This document shows positions 9,219 through 35,037 of a stretch of DNA of 64,000 bases, one piece after another; position 1 is the first letter of the stretch; every line of letters begins with the position of its first letter. The position numbers and the translations under genes are program-made. Origin of the DNA: an uncultured Candidatus Saccharimonas sp. GTDB lineage: Bacteria > Patescibacteriota > Saccharimonadia > Saccharimonadales > AQU-01. Below the pieces are notes generated by a model, which did not search any database, had not been told where the DNA came from, and saw nothing but the letters and a program-made list of their open reading frames with translations. The stretch lies in the NCBI GenBank assembly GCA_943358095.1, contig CALRGT010000004.1, positions 1,997-65,996 on the forward strand, given 5' to 3'.

Positions 9219-9245
9219 CAAAAAACAGAGGCAAATTACCTCTGT
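9219..9245 (-). terminator. intrinsic terminator after tRNA-Lys
   Basis: Minus strand ACAGAGG-TAATTTG-CCTCTGT followed by TTTTTTGAT. Confidence 0.65.
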
Positions 9246-9262
9246 TTTAAGCATAAGCTGTA

Positions 9263-15467: not shown

Positions 15468-15506
15468 TATTTTGTCTCCTTTTAAATGATTCAATTCGAT
15501 GATTTT

Positions 15507-15533
15507 CTAGCACTCATTATAGCACAGTGCCAA
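15507..15533 (-). promoter_or_regulatory. degenerate CIRCE-like inverted repeat upstream of dnaK
   Basis: CTAGCACTC-N9-CAGTGCCAA matches the consensus at 15 of 18 positions. Confidence 0.5.
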
Positions 15534-15551
15534 CTCATAAATTATAGTTTT

Positions 15552-15578
15552 CTGGCAGTCTCATGTCAAGAGTGCCAG
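15552..15578 (-). promoter_or_regulatory. second CIRCE-like inverted repeat upstream of dnaK
   Basis: CTGGCAGTC-N9-GAGTGCCAG. The arms are 8 of 9 self-complementary, and the right arm is 7 of 9 to consensus. Confidence 0.45.
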
Positions 15579-15638
15579 AATTGTTGTTAGCTGGTTAACT
15601 TCTGACAGCTCTACTTGGTCAAGAAAGCTGACGTAAAC

Positions 15639-15911
15639 TTAAATCTCAAAAATCTTGAACTCAACAAAACCGACGAATCGTCTAAATTCACGCAACACTT
15701 CTTCTTTTGACCCAGTATCGGCTATATTGAGAGTTTCTTTGTCGTCAAGAATAGTACCAACTCGGAATAAATCTTCTCTCAATACCGTTTCAGCATACTC
15801 GCTTTGATTATTCTCAAACTCATCAAGTACGCCGTGCATTGCTATAGGCCATCTAATATCATAAACATCAGGAATTTCGTTTGGCTCAGACTCGTTCATC
15901 ATTTTTGCCAA
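15639..15911 (-). CDS. hypothetical acidic cytoplasmic protein
   Basis: 90-aa ORF between grpE and dnaK with no TM helix and no motif. Confidence 0.45.
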   Translation of the reverse strand: MAKMMNESEPNEIPDVYDIRWPIAMHGVLDEFENNQSEYAETVLREDLFRVGTILDDKETLNIADTGSKEEVLREFRRFVGFVEFKIFEI

Positions 15912-15926
15912 TCAATAGCTATGCAA

Positions 15927-16127
15927 TTAGTCTCTTTTTTCATACTTCATAACACCAAAGGTTGGCTCTAGTCGCCATATTGCAACATCCAATGAGTTCA
16001 ACGCTAAACCTGGACAACCACTATCAACTAACCTGTTATATCTATCTATCACTTCTGAAGAAACTTCTCTCGTCTCTGGATTAAGTTGCTTTGATACTTG
16101 CGACTCAAAAACTTCCGAATTACTCAT
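15927..16127 (-). CDS. hypothetical small protein, translationally coupled to grpE
   Basis: 66 aa with an ATGA overlap with the grpE stop. No motif. Confidence 0.45.
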   Translation of the reverse strand: MSNSEVFESQVSKQLNPETREVSSEVIDRYNRLVDSGCPGLALNSLDVAIWRLEPTFGVMKYEKRD

Positions 16128-16609
16128 CTAGAACCTACCTTTACCATTGCGTGTCTTATTATTTCATCACCAACCTTATAACCAGCTTGTAATTCTTCTG
16201 TCACTACTTCCGTATCACCCTCACCTTCTTCCATGCTAATTGCTTCGTGAAGTTCTGGATTAAAATGCTCGCCAACTGTTTTGATTCGTTCGACGCCAAT
16301 CTTTACCATCGTATCTTCAAACTGCTTAACTACACCTTGGACGCCTTTAATGTAGTCATTGTCAGCCAATTCTTTTGGCACATTTTTTAGGGCTCTCTCA
16401 AAATTATCAATTACCGGCAAAAGTTCTTTTACTATTAGTGACTTATAAAATCCACCCAATTTAATCCGATCTTCTTCCGCTCTACGTCGTACGTTCATCG
16501 CATCGGCTCTTTCGCGCAACAAAGCTTCTGTCAGTTCAGCTATTTGAACTTCGTGCTCGTTTACGACAGGCTCAATTATATCTGCAATATCTTTTTTAAC
16601 TTTACTCAT
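16124..16609 (-). CDS. grpE: nucleotide exchange factor GrpE
   Basis: 161 aa with an N-terminal coiled coil and a C-terminal GrpE core (LLPVIDNFERA, HEAI). Overlaps the hrcA stop. Confidence 0.9.
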   Translation of the reverse strand: MSKVKKDIADIIEPVVNEHEVQIAELTEALLRERADAMNVRRRAEEDRIKLGGFYKSLIVKELLPVIDNFERALKNVPKELADNDYIKGVQGVVKQFEDTMVKIGVERIKTVGEHFNPELHEAISMEEGEGDTEVVTEELQAGYKVGDEIIRHAMVKVGSR

Positions 16610-17306
16610 ACATCGACTCCTCTAGTGTTTTACCTGCTCGTTCAACTAAACTCATTACATCACGATAACTTTGGCGCGTAGGGCCAAGTACACCTATAAA
16701 ACTACGATCGCTAAAAGGACTTCTGAATTTACTAATTATCAAACTGCAGCCACTGTTGCGACCAATAGGATTCTCAGCTCCTATGTATACGCTGAGTGCT
16801 TCGTTGGGAGCAGCTTCTCTAAGCCATGGTTCAAGATTGTCTAATAGTCGCGCCACTTCCTGTACTTGAGCAGGATGAATAAATTCTGGTTGACCAAATA
16901 AGTTACTAAGTCCACTCATATAAAGCTGATTACCAATGGTTCCAAGACCTAGATTATGTGTCAGTTCAACTAACGTATCGACTGTATTACGGATAACTCG
17001 TTCTGGCATTCCTCCGTTATTAGTTCTTGCCGCCAATGCTCTTTCTACGCGAGGATTAGGAGTCTTTACAGATTCGCCACCAACCTGATTAACATAAAAT
17101 CTATAACCTTTATCGGTTGGAACACGTCCAGCACTTGTGTGTGGCTGCGATATAAAGCCTAGTTCTTCAAGGTTGGCCATTTCAGCTCTAACGGTAGCGC
17201 TAGAAACATTAAAAAGCTTAGCCAAGAGACTTGAGCCGACTGGGCTAGCCACCTCAGCATACTGTTCGATTATGGCATCAAGGATTTGAATTTGTCGTTC
17301 AGTCAT
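16602..17306 (-). CDS. hrcA: heat-inducible transcription repressor HrcA (short form)
   Basis: 234 aa with an N-terminal winged helix (LTERQ..IL..I...Y.....PVGS..L). The operon continues with grpE, and a CIRCE site lies upstream. Confidence 0.85.
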   Translation of the reverse strand: MTERQIQILDAIIEQYAEVASPVGSSLLAKLFNVSSATVRAEMANLEELGFISQPHTSAGRVPTDKGYRFYVNQVGGESVKTPNPRVERALAARTNNGGMPERVIRNTVDTLVELTHNLGLGTIGNQLYMSGLSNLFGQPEFIHPAQVQEVARLLDNLEPWLREAAPNEALSVYIGAENPIGRNSGCSLIISKFRSPFSDRSFIGVLGPTRQSYRDVMSLVERAGKTLEESMYE

Positions 17307-29065: not shown

Positions 29066-29722
29066 TTACTTGTCAAAAGTAAGCGTTTTAGCAATCATCA
29101 GGTCAAAGTCTTTTAGTACATCTGGATAATTTGTCCCTATGTTATAGCCGGCAATATATTCCCTGCCGCCACTCACAAATAAGTATTGAACTTTTTTATC
29201 GCCAGCTTCTGGGCCAATGCCGAATTCATTGGTCAGTTTGTAAGTTCCGGCCTGCCTCTTACCCGTAACGCCATTTGCAGTAACAACTTCTGATTTAAGG
29301 TCGGTGTAGTCTGTGTCCTTCAATTCGCTGTCAGAGGTGGCAGTTTTTAGACTAGATGTAACATACATTTGGCCGATATTCTCTGTTGCACAAGTACCGA
29401 CCGATTTAGCATCACCACCAACCATAAATAACTCAGCCGAGCAGTATTCTGTATTGGCCGGTACTACCCAAAAGCTTGGATATTTTAACGAAAACTTTGC
29501 GGAAGTGTTAGTGTAAGCAATCCAATCTTTTGTTGGGTCAACAACCACAGCACTGGTTGCGTCATTAGCCTTACTTACTGCAACTTTTGATGTGCCTTTA
29601 GGGATTGTATTGGTGGTGTTATTTTTCTTGTATACAAAATACCCCGTACCACCAATAATCGCTACCACTGTTAACAGTAGTAATACTTGCACTATACCAA
29701 AACCTTTTTCATTTTTGTTCAT
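29066..29722 (-). CDS. hypothetical membrane-anchored secreted protein
   Basis: 218 aa with an N-terminal TM helix and two Cys in the ectodomain. No motif. Confidence 0.5.
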   Translation of the reverse strand: MNKNEKGFGIVQVLLLLTVVAIIGGTGYFVYKKNNTTNTIPKGTSKVAVSKANDATSAVVVDPTKDWIAYTNTSAKFSLKYPSFWVVPANTEYCSAELFMVGGDAKSVGTCATENIGQMYVTSSLKTATSDSELKDTDYTDLKSEVVTANGVTGKRQAGTYKLTNEFGIGPEAGDKKVQYLFVSGGREYIAGYNIGTNYPDVLKDFDLMIAKTLTFDK

Positions 29723-29985
29723 AATCCACCTTTCTATTTAAGGTCAGTATACTCTCAATACTTCGTAAACAAAAAAACAAGAGGGGGCACCCTGAGGCTT
29801 AACCACTGGCAGATGTGAAGAATGTGAAATAGTGTTTTTCATTTACTGCATCGTTTTGGAATAAAATCAATAAAAAATTCCAGCTAAATATAAAATCAAA
29901 TACTATCTGTTCTTATAAATACCCAAAAAAACTATTGCTGTGATTATTGCTCCAGCAATAAAAATATATATGTTTGGCATAATAT

Positions 29986-30222: not shown

Positions 30223-30290
30223 TGGTAGCGGGGCCAGGGCAAGCGCACTTCAGTCCAGACATTACATCCCCTGCCCTCTAAAGGCAAGAT
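30223..30290 (-). repeat. tRNA-fMet 3'-end-derived element (distal copy), directly after the SDR stop codon
   Basis: Plus strand TGGTAGCGGGGCCAGGGCAAGCGCAC is identical for 26 nt to the copies at 31985 and 33503. The first 16 nt equal the 3' end of the tRNA at 33673-33747. Confidence 0.75.
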
Positions 30291-31019
30291 CTACTTGCCT
30301 TTAATAGAATAGCCGCCGTCAGCCAAAAAATCTGACCCAGTTATATAGCTAGCTTCATCAGAAGCAAGGAACATTACAAGTGGAGCAATCTCTTCGGGTT
30401 TAGATATTCGACCGAGTATTGTCCCGTCACTTATTCTCTTGAAGGTCTCCTCGTTCCAATCGTTAACTTGGTCAGTCTCTACGTAACCTGGTGAAACCGT
30501 ATTAAATCGTATGTCGGGGTAGGTTTTAGCAAGTGCTTTTGTTATTGATATAATGCCTGCTTTTGTGGCAGCAAAAGTCAGAGTACTAGTGGTCGCAAGA
30601 TTTGGCTGTCCTTTGATAGAGCTGATGTTGATGATACTTCCGGACTTGTTCGATTGCATTGACGGCACTACGGCCTGGATGCAGTGCAATGTGCCCAACA
30701 CGTTCGTTTTATATTCTTCAATTGCCTTATCATCGTCCATTTCAGTGACATCTTTTAGGAAGTTGCGAGCAACTCCTGCGTTGTTGACTAGTACATCAAT
30801 GCCACCCAACTCCTTTATAGCACTCAGAGTGGCGTTTTTGTCGGAAACGTCAAATACGGCTTTGACTGAGCCATCAAGACTCTTTTGAACTTTCTTTAAC
30901 TCCTCGCTATCCGTACGGCCATGGACTATTACTGTATAACCTTGTCTATGGGCTAATTCAGCGATAGCTTTCCCTATGCCTCTACTTGAACCAGTAATTA
31001 AGATTGTTTTCATAGTCAT
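30291..31019 (-). CDS. short-chain dehydrogenase/reductase family protein with Tyr-to-Phe change in the catalytic motif
   Basis: 242 aa with TGSSRGIG, NNAG and NISS motifs. The expected YxxxK reads FAATK. Confidence 0.8.
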   Translation of the reverse strand: MTMKTILITGSSRGIGKAIAELAHRQGYTVIVHGRTDSEELKKVQKSLDGSVKAVFDVSDKNATLSAIKELGGIDVLVNNAGVARNFLKDVTEMDDDKAIEEYKTNVLGTLHCIQAVVPSMQSNKSGSIINISSIKGQPNLATTSTLTFAATKAGIISITKALAKTYPDIRFNTVSPGYVETDQVNDWNEETFKRISDGTILGRISKPEEIAPLVMFLASDEASYITGSDFLADGGYSIKGK

Positions 31020-31031
31020 ATCATATCAGAC

Positions 31032-31062
31032 AAAATAAAATGACCCCAGTAATGAGGCCATT
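31032..31062 (-). terminator. intrinsic terminator after tRNA-like element E1
   Basis: Minus strand AATGGCCTC-ATTACT-GGGGTCATT forms a 9-bp stem with 2 G-U pairs, followed by TTTATTTT. Confidence 0.55.
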
Positions 31063-31073
31063 GTGCTTATGCT

Positions 31074-31133
31074 TGGTAGCCCAAGTGCATTCGAATTGGA
31101 ACGTACTCCTTGAAGAGTTGGCTAGATGGAATA
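31074..31133 (-). repeat. tRNA-like element E1 (GGGCTACCA family), directly after the HAD stop codon
   Basis: Minus strand ...ACTC-TTCAAG-GAGT-ACGTTCCAATTCGAATGCACTTGGGCTACCA. A near-identical 29-nt core is found at 31622-31650. Confidence 0.7.
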
Positions 31134-31517
31134 CTATAAATTTACAGCTAGAAAGTCTTCGAGAGCTTTTAGGTCTTTTTTCACTGGGTCGTAATACATT
31201 GTATTGATACCAGCTGTCTCAGCGCTCTTAACGGCCTCTGGGTTATGCTCAAAGAAGACTACTTCGTCTGGCTTCAATCCATAGCGTTTTAACATAATTT
31301 CAAAATACTTAGGGTCTGTCTTTTCTGGGTCATGCTTTAGAGTAAATACTTCGTACGGCACATCATCCAACTTAAACTCTTTGAATTGCTCGTCATTAGC
31401 ACCAGTCAGGACGATTTTCTTATTAGGAAAAGTCTCTAAGAGTGCGTGCATTTCTTTGAAGATAGTTCCATCTTTAAACACCAAGCCGTCTATTGCGTCC
31501 ACAAGTATTGTTTTCAT
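31134..31517 (-). CDS. HAD-superfamily hydrolase-like protein
   Basis: Start trimmed to ATG 31517 (MKTILVDAIDGLV, a DxD-like motif I). A later FFEHNPEAVKSAETAGI resembles motif IV. 127 aa. Confidence 0.55.
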   Translation of the reverse strand: MKTILVDAIDGLVFKDGTIFKEMHALLETFPNKKIVLTGANDEQFKEFKLDDVPYEVFTLKHDPEKTDPKYFEIMLKRYGLKPDEVVFFEHNPEAVKSAETAGINTMYYDPVKKDLKALEDFLAVNL

Positions 31518-31556
31518 ATCTCCATCATACCAAACCCCAAGCAAGACTCGAACCAT
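31518..31556 (-). promoter_or_regulatory. conserved upstream block with extended -10 (TGGTATGAT) and T-loop-like GGTTCGAGTC
   Basis: Minus strand GGTTCGAGTCTTGCTTGGGGTTTGGTATGATGGAGAT-ATG. A homologous block lies at 32970-33010. Confidence 0.4.
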
Positions 31557-31580
31557 TTAACAGCTAAGAATTATTGGTAA

Positions 31581-31610
31581 CAAAAAACCTCTGCTACGAA
31601 TAACAGAGGT
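31581..31610 (-). terminator. intrinsic terminator after tRNA-like element E2
   Basis: Minus strand ACCTCTG-TTATTCGTAG-CAGAGGT followed by TTTTTTG. Confidence 0.7.
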
Positions 31611-31621
31611 CAAAGTGCTTA

Positions 31622-31713
31622 TGGTAGCCCAAATACATTCGAATTGGAACCTTATCCTTGAGGAGATAAGTTGGTGGACACAGCTTAACAGGGAGGCGAC
31701 GTGTTAATTGAGA
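31622..31713 (-). repeat. tRNA-like element E2 (GGGCTACCA family), directly after the stop of the 64-aa ORF
   Basis: Minus strand ...CTTATC-TCCTCAAG-GATAAG-GTTCCAATTCGAATGTATTTGGGCTACCA. The stem differs from E1 by changes on both strands that keep pairing. Confidence 0.7.
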
Positions 31714-31908
31714 CTACTTTTTAGGAGAGAAGTAGTCAATAGCACCTGAGACCATACAAACGACTCCAACGAAGCCTATAAAAACGGTCCCCCAGTTTAC
31801 ATGCCCAGCTTTGTTCAGACTATCTGTGCTATTGATTAATGCTAGGCCAATTAGTATCTGTACAATTGCCAATCTTGAGTTAGTAGTTTTTGCCATACTA
31901 TTATTCAA
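31714..31908 (-). CDS. small two-TM membrane protein
   Basis: 64-aa ORF with two hydrophobic helices. No motif. Confidence 0.5.
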   Translation of the reverse strand: MNNSMAKTTNSRLAIVQILIGLALINSTDSLNKAGHVNWGTVFIGFVGVVCMVSGAIDYFSPKK

Positions 31909-31946
31909 TCCTTATTTATTCACTCAATTATGCTCGACTTTATGAT

Positions 31947-31974
31947 AAAATAAAAGACCTCGTTTCCAGAGGTC
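31947..31974 (-). terminator. intrinsic terminator after the tandem tRNA-half block
   Basis: Minus strand GACCTC-TGGAAAC-GAGGTC followed by TTTTATTTT. Confidence 0.7.
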
Positions 31975-31984
31975 AAAATGCTCA

Positions 31985-32378
31985 TGGTAGCGGGGCCAGG
32001 GCAAGCGCACATTAATTTGTGCGCCGAGAGGCTTCGGGCAACAGACTAATGACCGAACCATGGGACTTCCGCCATTACTGACTAGGGGCCAGGAATACTG
32101 GGGTATAATCCGCCCGTTTGTCGCTAAAGCGACGGGGGATTAGCGAACCATGGGACTTGCTGGTTCAAATACTGCGGGGCCTGGAATATTCCCTCGCTCC
32201 GGCCCGCCAAATCATTTGGGAGTGGCGGGTCGGGCTCAGGATATAATTTTGTCATAACAAAATTATCGAACCTTTTTGGCTCGAGCCCTGAGCCTCGGCC
32301 AAGAAAAAAGCTCCATCTTACTATGGGACTATTTTCTTGGGAGCAGGGTTAGTTTGCTCTACCGATAGGGACTAGAAC
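31985..32378 (-). repeat. ORF-free GC-rich block of three tandem degenerate tRNA-fMet 3'-half modules
   Basis: Pseudo 3' ends lie at 31985-32000 (exact), 32078-32092 (TGACTAGGGGCCAGG) and 32170-32184 (TACTGCGGGGCCTGG). T-arm-like CGAACCATGGGACTT occurs at 32054 and 32144. Several 7-9-bp hairpins lie in between. Confidence 0.7.
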
Positions 32379-32969
32379 CTAGTTTGCCTTTCTGTACATG
32401 TAGTAATAAGTCGTCACTATCACATTAAAAGTAAGACCTTTCATGCAGCTCACAATAAGTGGTGTAGAGCCAATCATGGCTGCGTATGTAAGGGTGCAAA
32501 GTAGAGCGCCGTAGACGAAATATAAGCTTTTTTCTGAAATGCCACTTGTTCTTTTGGAAGTCACAACATGATAAACCCATGGCGCGGCCGCTATGGTATT
32601 GAATATTACCGCAAACCATCCAGCACTTGCGGGGTAAGCACCAATTAACCAAGCGGCCAGTGGGGCAACCAGAGCTACGCTGAGAATTGCTTTTTGACGT
32701 TTTGACTTGTTGGTAACTAGGTAGCCGATTGTCAAACTTGTGATAATAAACATTGCAAAATTAGTCACTAACGGTACCCATAAATTCTCAGAAGCAAAGT
32801 AAACCATCCACCCGATGTTCCCTGCTGCGTAAAGGGTAAGTGTCGGGGCATAAAGACCTTTAGGGTTGCGAGTATGAACCAGCTTAGCAAGTTGCGAGTA
32901 GTTAGAGAGCAACCAAAAAGCCTCAGCTGAGATAATCAATAAATTTTCAATAATTGTTTGTGTAAGCAC
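32379..32969 (-). CDS. polytopic membrane protein, possibly PQ-loop/SWEET-like transporter
   Basis: 196 aa with a GTG start and 6-7 TM helices. Two internally similar halves each carry a basic loop after the first helix (SQLAKLVHTRNPKG and HVVTSKRTSG). Weak pattern call. Confidence 0.4.
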   Translation of the reverse strand: MLTQTIIENLLIISAEAFWLLSNYSQLAKLVHTRNPKGLYAPTLTLYAAGNIGWMVYFASENLWVPLVTNFAMFIITSLTIGYLVTNKSKRQKAILSVALVAPLAAWLIGAYPASAGWFAVIFNTIAAAPWVYHVVTSKRTSGISEKSLYFVYGALLCTLTYAAMIGSTPLIVSCMKGLTFNVIVTTYYYMYRKAN

Positions 32970-33010
32970 TTATGCATATCATACCAAACAACCAGACAGG
33001 ACTCGAAACT
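32970..33010 (-). promoter_or_regulatory. conserved upstream block with extended -10 (TGGTATGAT) and T-loop-like TTCGAGTC
   Basis: Minus strand TTTCGAGTCCTGTCTGGTTGTTTGGTATGATATGCATAA-GTG. Homologous to 31518-31556. Confidence 0.4.
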
Positions 33011-33081
33011 GAAATACAGATTTAATAATATCGCACAACCAAAGCGACTGGTCTTGAAGCCAATCTCTATCTTTAAAGTCT

Positions 33082-33113
33082 TGGTAGCCTTGGTTTGTTA
33101 TAACTGGAACTTA
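33082..33113 (-). repeat. degenerate tRNA-like element E3 directly after the stop of the 99-aa ORF
   Basis: Minus strand TAAGTTCCAGTTATAACAAACCAAGGCTACCA shares GTTCCA...GGCTACCA with E1 and E2. Confidence 0.4.
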
Positions 33114-33413
33114 CTAATAGCAGAAGTGTGAATCGAAGTCTTTCTTCCATTTAGCAATATCACTCGTTGAAGCACCTGATGACTCTACCTGCTTCATGAG
33201 CTTTTCATGACCCGGGCCAGAACAAAATTGCCTGTCAGTATAGGACATAATGAAACTCAAGGCAGTATTATTATACCGATTGGTGCCTGCATTATTAAAA
33301 ACCACCCAAAATACAGTAACAGCTATAAGTATCGACATGTTAACTGCTAACGATATAATCATGACTATTTTTATAACTTTGGTGTCATCCTTAGTTTCTG
33401 ATTGTTTTTTCAT
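33114..33413 (-). CDS. small membrane-anchored protein
   Basis: 99 aa with one TM helix and two Cys in the C-terminal part. No motif. Confidence 0.5.
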   Translation of the reverse strand: MKKQSETKDDTKVIKIVMIISLAVNMSILIAVTVFWVVFNNAGTNRYNNTALSFIMSYTDRQFCSGPGHEKLMKQVESSGASTSDIAKWKKDFDSHFCY

Positions 33414-33502
33414 TTATTCCTTTGATTATTTAACTTAAGCATAATACATACGCAAATAATATTACAGAACCCCGATTTCTGCAAAGTCATGATGCTTATG
33501 TT

Positions 33503-33640
33503 TGGTAGCGGGGCCAGGGCAAGCGCACATTAATCCAGGCGCCCGCTACGCTGGGGCCTGTGACTAATGACCGAACCATGGGACTTGCACCAGCTAAAGC
33601 TGTTGCGTCCCAGAACCGAGTCCTAAACCAGGACCAAAGA
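33503..33640 (-). repeat. tRNA-fMet 3'-half-derived element adjacent to the intact tRNA
   Basis: 33503-33534 is identical for 32 nt to 31985-32016. The 25-nt block GACTAATGACCGAACCATGGGACTT at 33562-33586 equals 32044-32068. Confidence 0.75.
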
Positions 33641-33666
33641 AAATGACCCATCTTGCGATGAGTCAT
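33633..33666 (-). terminator. intrinsic terminator after tRNA-fMet
   Basis: Minus strand AATGACTCATC-GCAA-GATGGGTCATT (one mismatch) followed by TTTCTTT. Confidence 0.65.
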
Positions 33667-33672
33667 TTACTT

Positions 33673-33747
33673 TGGTAGCGGGGCCAGGACTCGAACCTGG
33701 GACCTCGTGGTTATGAGCCACGCGAGCTGCCGCTGCTCCACCCCGCG
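33673..33747 (-). tRNA. initiator-like tRNA-Met (CAU), CCA encoded
   Basis: CGCGGGG-TG-GAGC-AGCGGCA-GCTC-G-CGTGG-CTCATAA-CCACG-AGGTC-CCAGG-TTCGAGT-CCTGG-CCCCGCT-ACCA. Position 1:72 is an unpaired C/U. The 5' half is close to the E. coli tRNA-fMet sequence as I recall it. Confidence 0.9.
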
Positions 33748-34632: not shown

Positions 34633-35037
34633 ATGTCGAGGCAGAACGGGCGAGAACTTCCAGGTTCACAAACTATCGAATTATTAGGCGAGCCAAGAGA
34701 CATTATTGAAGGCTACACGTACGAAGAGTCTCAAGCTGACGTAATACCACTCGAAGGACGAGCAGGAAGCCTACACGCTAGACTATTTGAAAAAGAAGTA
34801 TGGATGAAGGACGCCAACTGTCGAGGCACAAAAACAAGCCTATTTTACCCAGAAAGAGGCGAAAGCAATAAGCAGGCCAAAAACGTCTGCGAAGAATGTG
34901 TTGTCTCAATTGAATGCAGCGAGTACTCTTTCTATGAAAAATTCGGCACGTGGGCCGGTCGATCCGAACAAGAAAGAAGAAGTCTACGCAAAGAGTCAAG
35001 CGCTACAGACGAATCAACTTCTCAAGAAATCTACTAA
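34633..35037 (+). CDS. WhiB-like (Wbl) 4Fe-4S transcription factor
   Basis: C-x22-C-x2-C-x5-C (NCRG...VCEECVVSIEC), then GTWAG (the G[VI]WGG turn) and a basic tail RSEQERRSLRK. An N-terminal extension of about 55 aa means the start is uncertain. Confidence 0.8.
   Translation: MSRQNGRELPGSQTIELLGEPRDIIEGYTYEESQADVIPLEGRAGSLHARLFEKEVWMKDANCRGTKTSLFYPERGESNKQAKNVCEECVVSIECSEYSFYEKFGTWAGRSEQERRSLRKESSATDESTSQEIY

What the first reader, a model, noticed from the sequence alone, without database searches (positions are those of the whole stretch)
30223..33640. Common layout: cassette stop codon, then a tRNA-like element, then an A/T-AGCA spacer, then an intrinsic terminator
Five cassette genes end 0-2 nt before a tRNA-derived element: SDR at 30291, HAD at 31134, the 64-aa ORF at 31714, the transporter-like gene at 32379 and the 99-aa ORF at 33114. 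After the element's ACCA comes a similar spacer: AGCATAAGCAC, TAAGCAC, TGAGCAT or AACATAAGCAT. In three cases a hairpin plus T-run terminator then follows (31032-31062, 31581-31610, 31947-31974), mirroring the real tRNA plus terminator at 33633-33747. There are two non-exclusive readings. (a) Each unit is an att scar carrying the flank of a tRNA-targeting element. (b) The elements act as 3' processing or stabilising signals, being RNase P/Z or CCA-enzyme substrates. Reading (b) would be analogous to the tRNA punctuation and t-elements known from organelle transcripts.
Basis: inference. Interest (0 to 1): 0.75.

Follow-up and report, generated by a model that had tools for sequence, protein, structure and literature searches.

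The report
Serine-recombinase cassette array at initiator tRNA
The "tRNA-like" pieces after each small gene are most likely docking-site scars of mobile gene cassettes that a family of serine recombinases inserts one after another at the end of the initiator tRNA gene in Saccharibacteria; this makes the locus an integron-like gene-capture site rather than a set of RNA-processing signals.

Summary
The layout is real. On the minus strand, five genes (SDR, HAD, a 64-aa ORF, a PQ-loop protein, a 99-aa ORF) each end next to an element finishing in GCTACCA. A short spacer follows, and usually a terminator. All lie downstream of a real initiator-type tRNA-Met gene (33673-33747).

The elements are not tRNA-like RNAs. 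ARAGORN and Rfam do not call them, and 79 relatives show no folding signal (mean z = -0.3).

Comparative data point to DNA recombination sites.
- The E_B element was found in at least 120 metagenome contigs.
- 61 of 61 hits lie downstream of the 75-nt tRNA-Met gene on the same strand, at a median spacing of about 1 kb.
- A family of large serine recombinases (at least 248 homologues) sits at the same tRNA end. Their reading frames run into the antisense of the tRNA.
- Every recombinase-carrying element of 4.5-6 kb ends distally in E_B.
- One 4.7-kb circular contig joins E_B directly to the recombinase end, as expected for attP.
- The base at tRNA position 72 inside GCWACCA matches between E_B and its host tRNA in 48 of 49 copies.
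- Strains of the window's own species carry the same cassettes in different orders, and the breakpoints share only GCTACCA.

Reading (a), att scars, is supported. Reading (b), RNA processing, is not. This is a new variant of a known kind.

The parts
33673..33747 (-). Initiator-type tRNA-Met(CAT) gene with encoded CCA. It anchors the array, and its last bases (..CCCCG-CT-ACCA) are the left half of the integration site.
   Evidence: ARAGORN and Rfam call it. The 5' CGCGGGG and the C1:U72 mismatch resemble E. coli tRNA-fMet (own knowledge). In 61 of 61 cases, E_B hits lie downstream of this 75-nt tRNA on the same strand.
33641..33668 (-). Intrinsic terminator hairpin flanked by an A-tract and a T-tract, directly after the tRNA.
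   Evidence: Terminator scan. The same arrangement occurs in other species.
33503..33632 (-). E_A3, a unit with no cargo gene. It holds an inverted copy resembling the tRNA 3' half, a direct T-arm-like GTCCCATGGTTCGGTC, GC-rich hairpins, and an exact copy of the last 16 nt of the tRNA.
   Evidence: (z = -2.0). Homologous units follow tRNA-fMet in L023, L042, L015, L057 and L083.
33414..33502 (-). Leader of the 99-aa cassette (AACATAAGCAT..., a decayed hairpin, and promoter-like hexamers at 33456-33485). It is the right half of the junction site.
   Evidence: The same leader plus gene follows three different upstream elements: E_A3 in the window, E_B' in L002 and an E_B in L120. Promoter scan.
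33114..33413 (-). 99-aa membrane-protein ORF (cassette cargo).
33082..33113 (-). E_C, a diverged short relative of E_B (GTTCCAGTTATAACAAACCAAGGCTACCA). It is the att arm of the 99-aa cassette.
   Evidence: Read directly. It travels with the 99-aa gene in L002, L217, L219 and L220.
32970..33081 (-). Leader of the PQ-loop cassette: AGACTTTAAAG, a hairpin at 33046-33065, GTTTCGAGTCC, then TGGTATGAT.
   Evidence: Its motifs come in the same order as at the left end of the recombinase-carrying elements (alignment A1; suggestive only). Hairpin.
32379..32969 (-). PQ-loop-like membrane-protein ORF (cassette cargo).
31985..32381 (-). E_A2, a composite arm. It holds the E_B 5' module (32341-32381) and three E_A-type sub-units, each with AAGTCCCATGGTTCG and/or CCTGGCCCC. 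The last sub-unit ends in the exact tRNA 16-mer.
   Evidence: (z = -6.6). In L219, L222 and L223 the arm ends one sub-unit earlier, with an intact ..GCTACCA joined to the distal flank.
31909..31984 (-). Leader of the 64-aa cassette (TGAGCAT, terminator at 31956-31974).
31714..31908 (-). 64-aa (probably 60-aa) membrane-peptide ORF (cassette cargo).
31622..31724 (-). E_B2, a nearly full long-form E_B att arm ending in GGGCTACCA.
   Evidence: nhmmer E = 3.9e-20 over profile positions 15-118. Family described.
31557..31621 (-). Leader of the HAD cassette (TAAGCAC, terminator at 31586-31611, GGTTCGAGTCTTGC, TGGTATGAT).
   Evidence: The same leader type directly follows real tRNA-fMet genes in L019 and L086.
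31134..31556 (-). HAD-like hydrolase ORF (cassette cargo). It is absent from strain L002.
31074..31138 (-). E_B1, a short-form E_B att arm ending in GGGCTACCA. Together with the following AG it forms the palindrome CTTGG-GCTA-CCAAG.
   Evidence: nhmmer E = 1.4e-16 over profile positions 54-118..
31020..31073 (-). Leader of the SDR cassette (AGCATAAGCAC, terminator at 31039-31062).
30291..31019 (-). Short-chain dehydrogenase ORF (cassette cargo). The allele in L002 is only about 80-84% identical, while the flanks are 95-97% identical.
30223..30290 (-). E_A1, the att arm of the SDR cassette and the distal end of the array. It holds the exact tRNA 16-mer and is followed by the conserved chromosomal flank AGTGATTAATGATGC.

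Best explanation
The region 30223-33672 is a tandem array of small mobile gene cassettes inserted at the 3' end of the initiator-type tRNA-Met gene of a Saccharibacterium.

Each cassette has four parts in order:
- a leader: the spacer, a terminator and promoter-like sequence;
- one gene;
- an arm (E_A, E_B or E_C) that abuts the stop codon;
- the shared core GC-W-ACCA at the end of the arm.

The arm plus core, joined to the leader of the next cassette, forms a recombination site of the attP/attR type. The tRNA 3' end plus its trailer forms the attB/attL counterpart.

The enzyme is inferred to be a Saccharibacteria-specific family of large serine recombinases. Their own 4.5-6 kb elements integrate at exactly this tRNA end and carry E_B at their far end. 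The one-gene cassettes are recombinase-less derivatives with both ends retained. They are either moved in trans or left behind after deletion.

Strand exchange is predicted at the two bases C71-W72 of the tRNA. These lie in the middle of the small palindrome ACTTGG-GCWA-CCAAGT.

Shown: the anatomy; the link to the tRNA; the link to the recombinase; the circular attP form; the position-72 match; the cassette permutations. Inferred: that the recombinase acts on the small cassettes, and the exact crossover.
For: 1. Anchor. All 62 tRNAs found on the 120 E_B-bearing metagenome contigs are tRNA-Met(CAT). In 61 of 61 cases the E_B profile hit lies downstream of the 75-nt tRNA-Met on the same strand. 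The median spacing between E_B copies is 969 nt, and one 12.8-kb contig carries 7-8 copies.

2. Enzyme.
- ORFs with Resolvase + Recombinase + Zn_ribbon_recom domains lie directly downstream of the tRNA and converge on it in L098, L131, L213 and L215. In L168 the tRNA side runs off the contig. Remnants occur in L085, L169 and L128.
- At least 248 homologues were found.
- 21 of 22 fetched sequences, and the alignment consensus, end in LVAGAGLEPATSWL. This is the antisense translation of the tRNA 3' half.

3. Far end. Every recombinase-carrying element whose far end could be read ends in a long-form E_B (nhmmer E = 1e-19 to 2e-31). Element lengths are 5913 and 6030 bp, and roughly 5.6 kb.

4. attP. 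L212 is a 4668-bp contig with a 127-bp terminal direct repeat, so it is circular, and it has no tRNA. On it, E_B..TCTACCA is joined directly to AGTTAGACTTTAAAG and the 3' end of the recombinase gene. The recombinase tail there reads the antisense of E_B.

5. Core identity. The W in the GCWACCA of E_B equals base 72 of the tRNA on the same contig in 48 of 49 copies (A/A 24, T/T 24). L215 has a third allele, G, in both.

6. Cassette exchange within the window's own species. Cassette sequences are 93.5-99.8% identical between strains, yet the order differs:
- window and L216: 99-PQ-64-HAD-SDR;
- L219 and L220: 64-99-PQ, then the distal flank;
- L002 and L217: 64-99-SDR'.
The homology blocks overlap only in the 7-nt GCTACCA. 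Other metagenome strains differ by single cassettes.

7. The leaders of the small cassettes keep the same motif order as the left ends of the recombinase-carrying elements.

8. General knowledge of these enzymes fits. Half-sites are about 25 bp, there is a central crossover dinucleotide, and attP is pseudo-palindromic (PMC3783163, read).
Against: - No recombinase gene is present in the 64-kb window, and none could be shown in the same species.
- Canonical serine integrases recombine only attP with attB, and they are auto-inhibited on attL and attR (PMC3783163). Serial accretion therefore needs a laxer enzyme or another route.
- E_B is conserved over about 113 nt, far more than a 25-bp half-site, and this is unexplained.
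- The E_A units (palindromic, z = -6.6 for E_A2) are not explained by the model.
- The dyad symmetry around GCWA is short: 6 bp in most sites and 12-13 bp in one.
- The permutations could also arise by homologous or microhomology-mediated recombination between the repeated modules.
- No recombination experiment or circle-junction read supports activity on the small cassettes.
Confidence: 0.78

Rival explanations
1. Reader's reading (b). The elements act in the RNA. They would be tRNA-like 3' UTR modules that RNase P, RNase Z or the CCA-adding enzyme recognises, and that define or stabilise mRNA 3' ends. The analogues would be organellar t-elements or viral tRNA-like structures.
For: - The elements lie on the sense strand of the upstream gene. 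111 of 124 E_B copies have a same-strand ORF ending within about 190 nt upstream, most often abutting the element.
- They end in ACCA, exactly like the encoded tRNA end.
- Real tRNA-Met genes carry the same trailer plus terminator.
- Long-form E_B contains a GG-bearing motif resembling a D-arm (CGGTAGAGTAA) and a TTCGAAT motif resembling a T-loop.
- E_B is conserved beyond what a recombinase half-site needs.
Against: - No element is called by ARAGORN, and none matches any Rfam model at E <= 10. This was tested on the window and on 12 further E_B copies.
- RNAalifold finds no consensus fold in 79 long copies.
- Column covariation is weak.
- Mean folding z is -0.30 on the sense strand and +0.14 on the antisense strand.
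- There is no 5' acceptor strand.
- The polarity towards the tRNA, the recombinase linkage, the circular attP and the position-72 match are all left unexplained.
Confidence: 0.1
2. The elements are att scars, as in the best explanation, but the one-gene cassettes are now immobile relics. Their order and content would change only through homologous recombination between the repeated modules, for example after natural transformation. No site-specific recombinase would act on them.
For: - No recombinase gene lies in the window or was shown in this species.
- Direct repeats of 60-400 nt (E arms, leaders) are good substrates for recombination.
- Single-cassette differences such as L101 versus L196 equal a deletion between two E_B repeats.
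- One boundary of the 99-aa block lies at the shared TGGTATGAT, not at the core.
- Recombinase pseudogenes are common.
Against: - E_A3 and E_B2 share only the 7-nt GCTACCA at the exchanged junction, which is too short for ordinary homologous recombination.
- The same 99-aa cassette is found behind three unrelated arms with the break always at ..ACCA.
- The cassette order is permuted, not merely shortened.
Confidence: 0.3
3. The locus is a classical integron or another tyrosine-recombinase system, with the elements acting as attC-like folded sites.
For: The array is polar and made of mostly one-gene cassettes, with the recombination element abutting the stop codon.
Against: - A motif screen found no tyrosine recombinase in the window or among 1,803 ORFs of at least 170 aa in the fetched loci. 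This is a crude test.
- The arms do not form hairpins.
- The cassettes carry terminators and promoter-like sequence.
- The linked enzyme is a serine recombinase.
Confidence: 0.03

Closest known systems
Staphylococcal cassette chromosome (SCC/SCCmec) composite islands at rlmH, moved by the Ccr large serine recombinases
   Same: - Large serine recombinases insert elements at the 3' end of one conserved housekeeping gene.
- Several elements accumulate in tandem, separated by repeated core sequences.
- Many units lack a recombinase and are moved by one supplied from a neighbour.
- The cargo includes anti-phage defence. The abstract of PMC11470126 matches this: the L131 element carries SMODS/AGS_C.
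   Different: - The target is a tRNA gene, not a protein-coding gene.
- Units are mostly single genes of 0.6-2.8 kb rather than 3-60 kb.
- Each unit carries a conserved arm of 55-113 nt that abuts the stop codon.
- The recombinase ORF runs across the junction into the antisense of the tRNA.
- Activity on the recombinase-less units has not been tested here.
Integrons (IntI, attI, attC cassette arrays)
   Same: - A polar array of mostly one-gene cassettes, all in the same orientation.
- The recombination element starts at or in the stop codon.
- Cassette order and content differ between close strains.
- A single fixed insertion point.
   Different: - The enzyme is a serine recombinase, not a tyrosine recombinase.
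- No recombinase gene sits beside the anchor in most loci.
- The sites are conserved in sequence and do not fold as hairpins.
- The cassettes bring their own terminator and promoter-like leader.
- The anchor is a tRNA gene.
Tandem genomic islands at tRNA genes with repeated partial tRNA copies (for example tycheposon arrays of Prochlorococcus, or accretion of ICEs and cis-mobilisable elements). This comparison is from my own knowledge and was not checked here.
   Same: A tRNA 3' end is repeated at every junction. Elements accumulate in series, and non-autonomous derivatives keep only their ends.
   Different: Those systems use tyrosine integrases and much larger units. Here only 7-16 nt of the tRNA are repeated, and the enzyme is a serine recombinase.
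tRNA-like 3' structures (plant-virus TLS, plant mitochondrial t-elements, tRNA punctuation)
   Same: The position directly after a stop codon, and a 3' terminal CCA.
   Different: No cloverleaf, no acceptor stem, no model score and no folding signal.

Membership tests
tRNA-like RNA element (TLS / t-element) | Folds into a cloverleaf or L-shape with an acceptor stem, detectable by tRNA covariance models | tested here: not met
   ARAGORN and Rfam (E <= 10) call only the real tRNAs in the window and in L131, L133 and L183. There is no 5' acceptor strand.
tRNA-like RNA element (TLS / t-element) | Conserved secondary structure supported by covariation or by stability above background | tested here: not met
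   RNAalifold finds no consensus fold. Covariation is weak. Mean z is -0.30 for 79 copies. Only the palindromic E_A2 and E_A3 fold well.
tRNA-like RNA element (TLS / t-element) | Processed by RNase P or RNase Z, or a substrate of the CCA-adding enzyme | not testable with these tools
   No RNA-end or enzymatic data are available.
Large-serine-recombinase attachment sites (attP/attB/attL/attR) | Physical linkage of the site to a large serine recombinase gene on the mobile element | tested here: met
   Linkage is met in related loci: L098, L131, L168, L212, L213 and L215, with the Pfam domains confirmed for L098 and L131. It is not met inside this window, which has no recombinase gene.
Large-serine-recombinase attachment sites (attP/attB/attL/attR) | The two element ends are joined in a circular form (attP) | tested here: met
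   L212 is circular, with a 127-bp terminal repeat, and E_B abuts the leader and the 3' end of the recombinase gene.
Large-serine-recombinase attachment sites (attP/attB/attL/attR) | attP and attB share only a short core that includes the crossover dinucleotide, which must be identical | tested here: met
   The shared core is GCWACCA(A). W matches the host tRNA in 48 of 49 copies, and a third allele, G, matches in L215.
Large-serine-recombinase attachment sites (attP/attB/attL/attR) | Imperfect dyad symmetry of roughly 20-25-bp half-sites around the crossover | tested here: inconclusive
   The inner palindrome ACTTGG-GCWA-CCAAGT is present in most attP reconstructions. It extends to 12-13 bp only in L131. 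AG follows ACCA in 64 of 142 copies.
Large-serine-recombinase attachment sites (attP/attB/attL/attR) | The recombinase catalyses exchange at these sites | not testable with these tools
   This needs an in vivo or in vitro assay.
Integron | An IntI tyrosine recombinase gene next to attI | tested here: not met
   No tyrosine-recombinase motif was found in the window or the loci, although the screen is crude. The neighbours of the anchor are DivIC, WhiB and Dus.
Integron | attC sites that fold as imperfect hairpins | tested here: not met
   E_B shows no hairpin or stability signal on either strand.
SCC-like composite island | Tandem units at the 3' end of one conserved gene, with the core repeated at each junction and some units lacking a recombinase | tested here: met
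SCC-like composite island | Homology of the recombinase to CcrA, CcrB or CcrC, and rlmH as the target | not tested
   The target is tRNA-fMet, not rlmH. The relationship of this recombinase family to Ccr was not examined. The comparison is one of mechanism, not of membership.

The most novel reading that the evidence does not exclude
Saccharibacteria possess a serine-recombinase counterpart of the integron. The initiator tRNA gene would serve as a fixed landing pad, and a lineage-specific large serine recombinase, supplied in trans by 4.5-6 kb autonomous elements, would capture, excise and reorder one-gene cassettes. Each cassette would bring its own promoter, terminator and a conserved att arm of 55-113 nt. 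The locus would be the main hot spot of strain-level gene flux in these reduced genomes, and a natural, ready-made integration system for engineering them.
Probability: 0.5. Interest if true: 0.75.

Novelty: new variant of a known kind. Interest (0 to 1): 0.6.

Why it matters
Saccharibacteria (candidate phyla radiation) have tiny genomes and few described mobile elements. In the literature I could search, nothing describes this locus.

If the model holds, three things follow.
- One site, the end of the initiator tRNA gene, concentrates strain-variable accessory and defence genes across the phylum. That explains much of their micro-diversity.
- The recombinase, attP (E_B plus leader) and attB (tRNA end) form a defined three-part system. 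It could be tested directly and used as a landing-pad tool for organisms that are hard to manipulate. It would also add to the serine-integrase toolbox.
- It would show that integron-like cassette arrays can be built on a serine recombinase.

The more exotic idea, bacterial mRNAs punctuated by tRNA-like elements, loses its basis.

Tried and rejected
1. tRNA-likeness. ARAGORN, Rfam at gathering threshold and at E <= 10, single-sequence folds, RNAalifold, column covariation and shuffle z-scores were all negative for E_B, E_C and E_A1.

2. Crossover in the T-loop, with the last 16 nt being the displaced host tRNA end. Rejected for the E_B and E_C cassettes, because the 99-aa cassette sits behind E_A-type and E_B-type ends and homology starts only at GCTACCA. 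It may still apply to the E_A units.

3. An RNA-mediated (retro-copy) origin, suggested by junctions lying exactly after CCA. Rejected because the cassettes begin with a terminator and promoter-like sequence, and because a DNA circle and a DNA recombinase were found.

4. Tyrosine recombinase or integron. No motif hits.

5. Xer/dif-like modules. Only a vague resemblance (GTGCGC, GCATAA). Not pursued.

6. Phage origin. The E_B pattern and the recombinase family are absent from the viral contig collection.

7. Exact-protein look-up of the DivIC gene found nothing.

8. An attempt to show that the window's species carries the recombinase failed. L213 has the same tRNA 3' half but is otherwise unrelated.

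9. The idea that the T-arm-like GGTTCGAGTCC in the leaders is a relic of the recombinase 3' coding region is only suggestive.

Full report
**Observation**

The window comes from a Candidatus Saccharimonas/Saccharibacteria genome; the Dus protein is 100% identical to that of a Saccharimonas MAG. Between 30223 and 33747 everything relevant lies on the minus strand.

A real tRNA-Met(CAT) gene with an encoded CCA sits at 33673-33747. It begins CGCGGGG and has a C1:U72 mismatch, as the initiator tRNA of E. coli does (my own knowledge). I therefore call it tRNA-fMet.

Pfam recognises an SDR, a HAD-like hydrolase and a weak PQ-loop protein. The 64-aa and 99-aa ORFs are small membrane proteins.

The terminator scan finds hairpin plus T-run sites at 31039-31062, 31586-31611, 31956-31974 and 33641-33668.

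The last 16 nt of the tRNA recur exactly at 30223, 31985 and 33503. With up to 3 mismatches there are 5 matches against 0.13 expected. The two E_B copies share a 29-mer that is not expected by chance.

**The elements are not tRNA-like RNAs**

- ARAGORN and Rfam call nothing there, even at E <= 10. The same holds for 12 further E_B copies in other loci.
- Single folds are unremarkable for E_A1, E_B2 and E_C. E_B1 gives z = -2.3. Only the palindromic E_A3 (z = -2.0) and E_A2 (z = -6.6) fold well.
- For 79 full-length relatives of E_B, RNAalifold gives no consensus and column covariation is weak.
- Mean folding z is -0.30 on the sense strand and +0.14 on the antisense strand.

**What the elements are: comparative evidence**

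Contigs of close strains were retrieved through the identical Dus protein. They carry the same cassettes in a different order and number.

Across 36 other loci that carry the homologous tRNA, a minority have downstream copies of their own tRNA 3' end. These copies follow the species-specific sequence variants of that tRNA.

The E_B 3' pattern is absent from viral contigs.

E_B turns out to be the end of a conserved module. About 60% of copies are a long form of roughly 113 nt, with these blocks in order: GTTCTAGTC, CGGTAGAGTAA, CYCTAGATA, TTCCAYC, GTTCCAATTCGAATGTACTTGGGCWACCA. The rest are a short form of about 55-60 nt. The 5' end of E_A2 in the window carries the first of these blocks.

111 of 124 copies have a same-strand ORF ending within about 190 nt upstream. 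Most often the stop abuts the module, and sometimes it uses a stop codon inside it.

All 62 tRNAs on these contigs are tRNA-Met(CAT). All 61 E_B profile hits on contigs with the 75-nt tRNA lie downstream of it on the same strand, at a median spacing of 969 nt. The array is therefore a conserved, polar structure anchored at tRNA-fMet.

**The enzyme**

A motif screen, then Pfam and phmmer, found large serine recombinase genes (Resolvase + Recombinase + Zn_ribbon_recom) immediately downstream of tRNA-fMet and converging on it in L098, L131, L213 and L215. In L168 the tRNA side runs off the contig, but the recombinase gene and the distal E_B are present. Pseudogene remnants lie at the same place in L085, L169 and L128.

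The ORFs read through the leader hairpin into the antisense of the tRNA, ending in ...LVAGAGLEPATSWL. A database search found at least 248 homologues, and the top 120 are at least 55% identical. Of 22 fetched sequences, 21 end in this tail, as does the alignment consensus. The whole family therefore sits at this tRNA.

Each recombinase-carrying element whose far end could be read ends distally in a long-form E_B. Lengths are 5913 and 6030 bp, and roughly 5.6 kb. Cargo includes a SMODS/AGS_C defence pair and a Ser/Thr kinase.

The one exception among the 22 is P0080, whose tail reads the antisense of E_B. Its contig, L212, is 4668 bp with a 127-bp terminal direct repeat and no tRNA, so it is a circle. 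On it E_B is joined directly to the leader and the recombinase 3' end. That is the attP configuration.

**The core**

attP (E_B plus leader) and attB (tRNA plus trailer) share only GCWACCA(A).

The variable base W, tRNA position 72, is the same in E_B and in the tRNA of the same contig in 48 of 49 cases (24 A/A, 24 T/T). L215 shows a third allele, G, in both.

Around the core, most attP reconstructions form the palindrome ACTTGG-GCWA-CCAAGT. In L131 the symmetry extends to 12-13 bp.

Serine integrases use half-sites of about 25 bp around a central crossover dinucleotide, and attP is pseudo-palindromic (PMC3783163). I therefore predict exchange at C71-W72. This step is inference.

**The small cassettes**

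Their leaders keep the same motif order as the left ends of the recombinase-carrying elements: AG..ACTTTAAAG, a hairpin, T-run-GTTTGGT, ATCTGTA, GGTTCNA... (alignment A1; suggestive only). Their right ends are E arms. This is what a derivative with an internal deletion would look like.

Strains of the window's own species, with cassette sequences 93.5-99.8% identical, show three arrangements:
- 99-PQ-64-HAD-SDR in the window and L216;
- 64-99-PQ followed by the distal flank in L219 and L220;
- 64-99-SDR' in L002 and L217.

At the E_B2-to-99-aa junction the two homology blocks overlap by just the 7-nt GCTACCA. The 99-aa cassette with the same leader follows three unrelated arms. Other metagenome strains differ by exactly one cassette.

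This favours site-specific exchange at the core. Homologous recombination between longer repeats can explain some events, for example the boundary at TGGTATGAT.

**What remains open**

- No recombinase gene is in the window.
- Canonical serine integrases do not act on attL or attR (PMC3783163). The analogy with the Ccr recombinases, which move tandem SCC-like cassettes (PMC11470126), offers a way out but is untested.
- The E_A units are not explained. Each comprises a bidirectional terminator, an inverted and a direct piece resembling the tRNA 3' half, and an exact 16-17-nt copy of the tRNA end. They occur as the sole unit in cassette-free species. They may be mini-elements without cargo, or duplicated landing sites.
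- Conservation of E_B over 113 nt, with stop codons in three frames at its start, exceeds what a half-site needs.

**Verdict**

The layout is real, general and functional at the DNA level. Reading (b) is unsupported. No description of this system was found in the searchable literature. I rate it a new variant of a known kind, with interest 0.6.

Noticed in passing
window ~35220 and leftwards; L001, L003, L010: Strains with a roughly 98% identical Dus gene lose synteny right after it. In place of tRNA-Met, WhiB, DivIC and tRNA-fMet they carry LytR_cpsA_psr and a cluster of seven or so glycosyltransferase, EpsG and ATP-grasp genes. This is a large structural variant.
   Followed up: no
window 34633-35037 (+): A WhiB-like transcription factor gene sits between the two divergent tRNA-Met genes. 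From my own knowledge this family is typical of Actinobacteria, the hosts of Saccharibacteria.
   Followed up: no
window 29696-29779; L002 15684, 17242, 20038: An ~80-nt upstream repeat precedes several paralogous genes that have a pilin-like N-terminus (KGF...) and a PsbP_2-like domain; the window copy is at 29066-29722. The strain-variable region continues beyond the array end, since L002 has an extra 199-aa gene and different neighbours.
   Followed up: partly
window 33440-33450, 9240-9262; L014, L042, L061, L086, L087: The motif CTTATGCTTAA lies about 20-25 nt upstream of many start codons. Its reverse complement, AAGCATAAG, directly follows tRNA and E ends. It may be a -10-like promoter motif of this lineage.
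   Followed up: no
L098 5716-7305; L131 3821-5407; proteins P0001-P0120: The recombinase ORFs end in a tail (LVAGAGLEPATSWL) encoded by the antisense of the tRNA across the integration junction. On excision the tail changes to the antisense of E_B (P0080). The C-terminus of the protein therefore differs between the integrated and the free state.
   Followed up: partly
L131 7512-8888; L098 1348-4179: The cargo of the recombinase-carrying elements includes a SMODS cyclase with an AGS_C sensor (CBASS-like defence), and a Ser/Thr kinase with a MarR-like regulator.
   Followed up: no
L014, L015, L026, L038, L049: Genome records labelled Burkholderiaceae, Limnocylindria/Limnocylindrales or Pristimantibacillus carry Saccharibacteria-type loci. 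In L014 the tRNA-fMet is identical to the window's and Dus is 79% identical. These are probably mis-binned contigs.
   Followed up: no
L037 ~15500-16700: An IS3-like transposase (helix-turn-helix OrfA plus an rve-type motif) is inserted just after the first unit downstream of tRNA-fMet.
   Followed up: no
window 31985-32381: E_A2 has an exceptionally stable predicted fold (-152 kcal/mol, z = -6.6). It is built from three tandem sub-units and an AT-rich perfect hairpin. In sister strains the arm ends one sub-unit earlier. Its role is unknown.
   Followed up: partly
spacers after ACCA: window 31063-31073 vs 31615-31621; one search list: The two common spacer types differ by a 4-nt AGCA insertion that moves TAAGCAY outwards (ACCA|TAAGCAC versus ACCA|AGCATAAGCAC). 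This resembles the 5-bp shift of the zinc-ribbon-domain motif between attB and attP half-sites described for serine integrases (PMC3783163). It is speculative.
   Followed up: no
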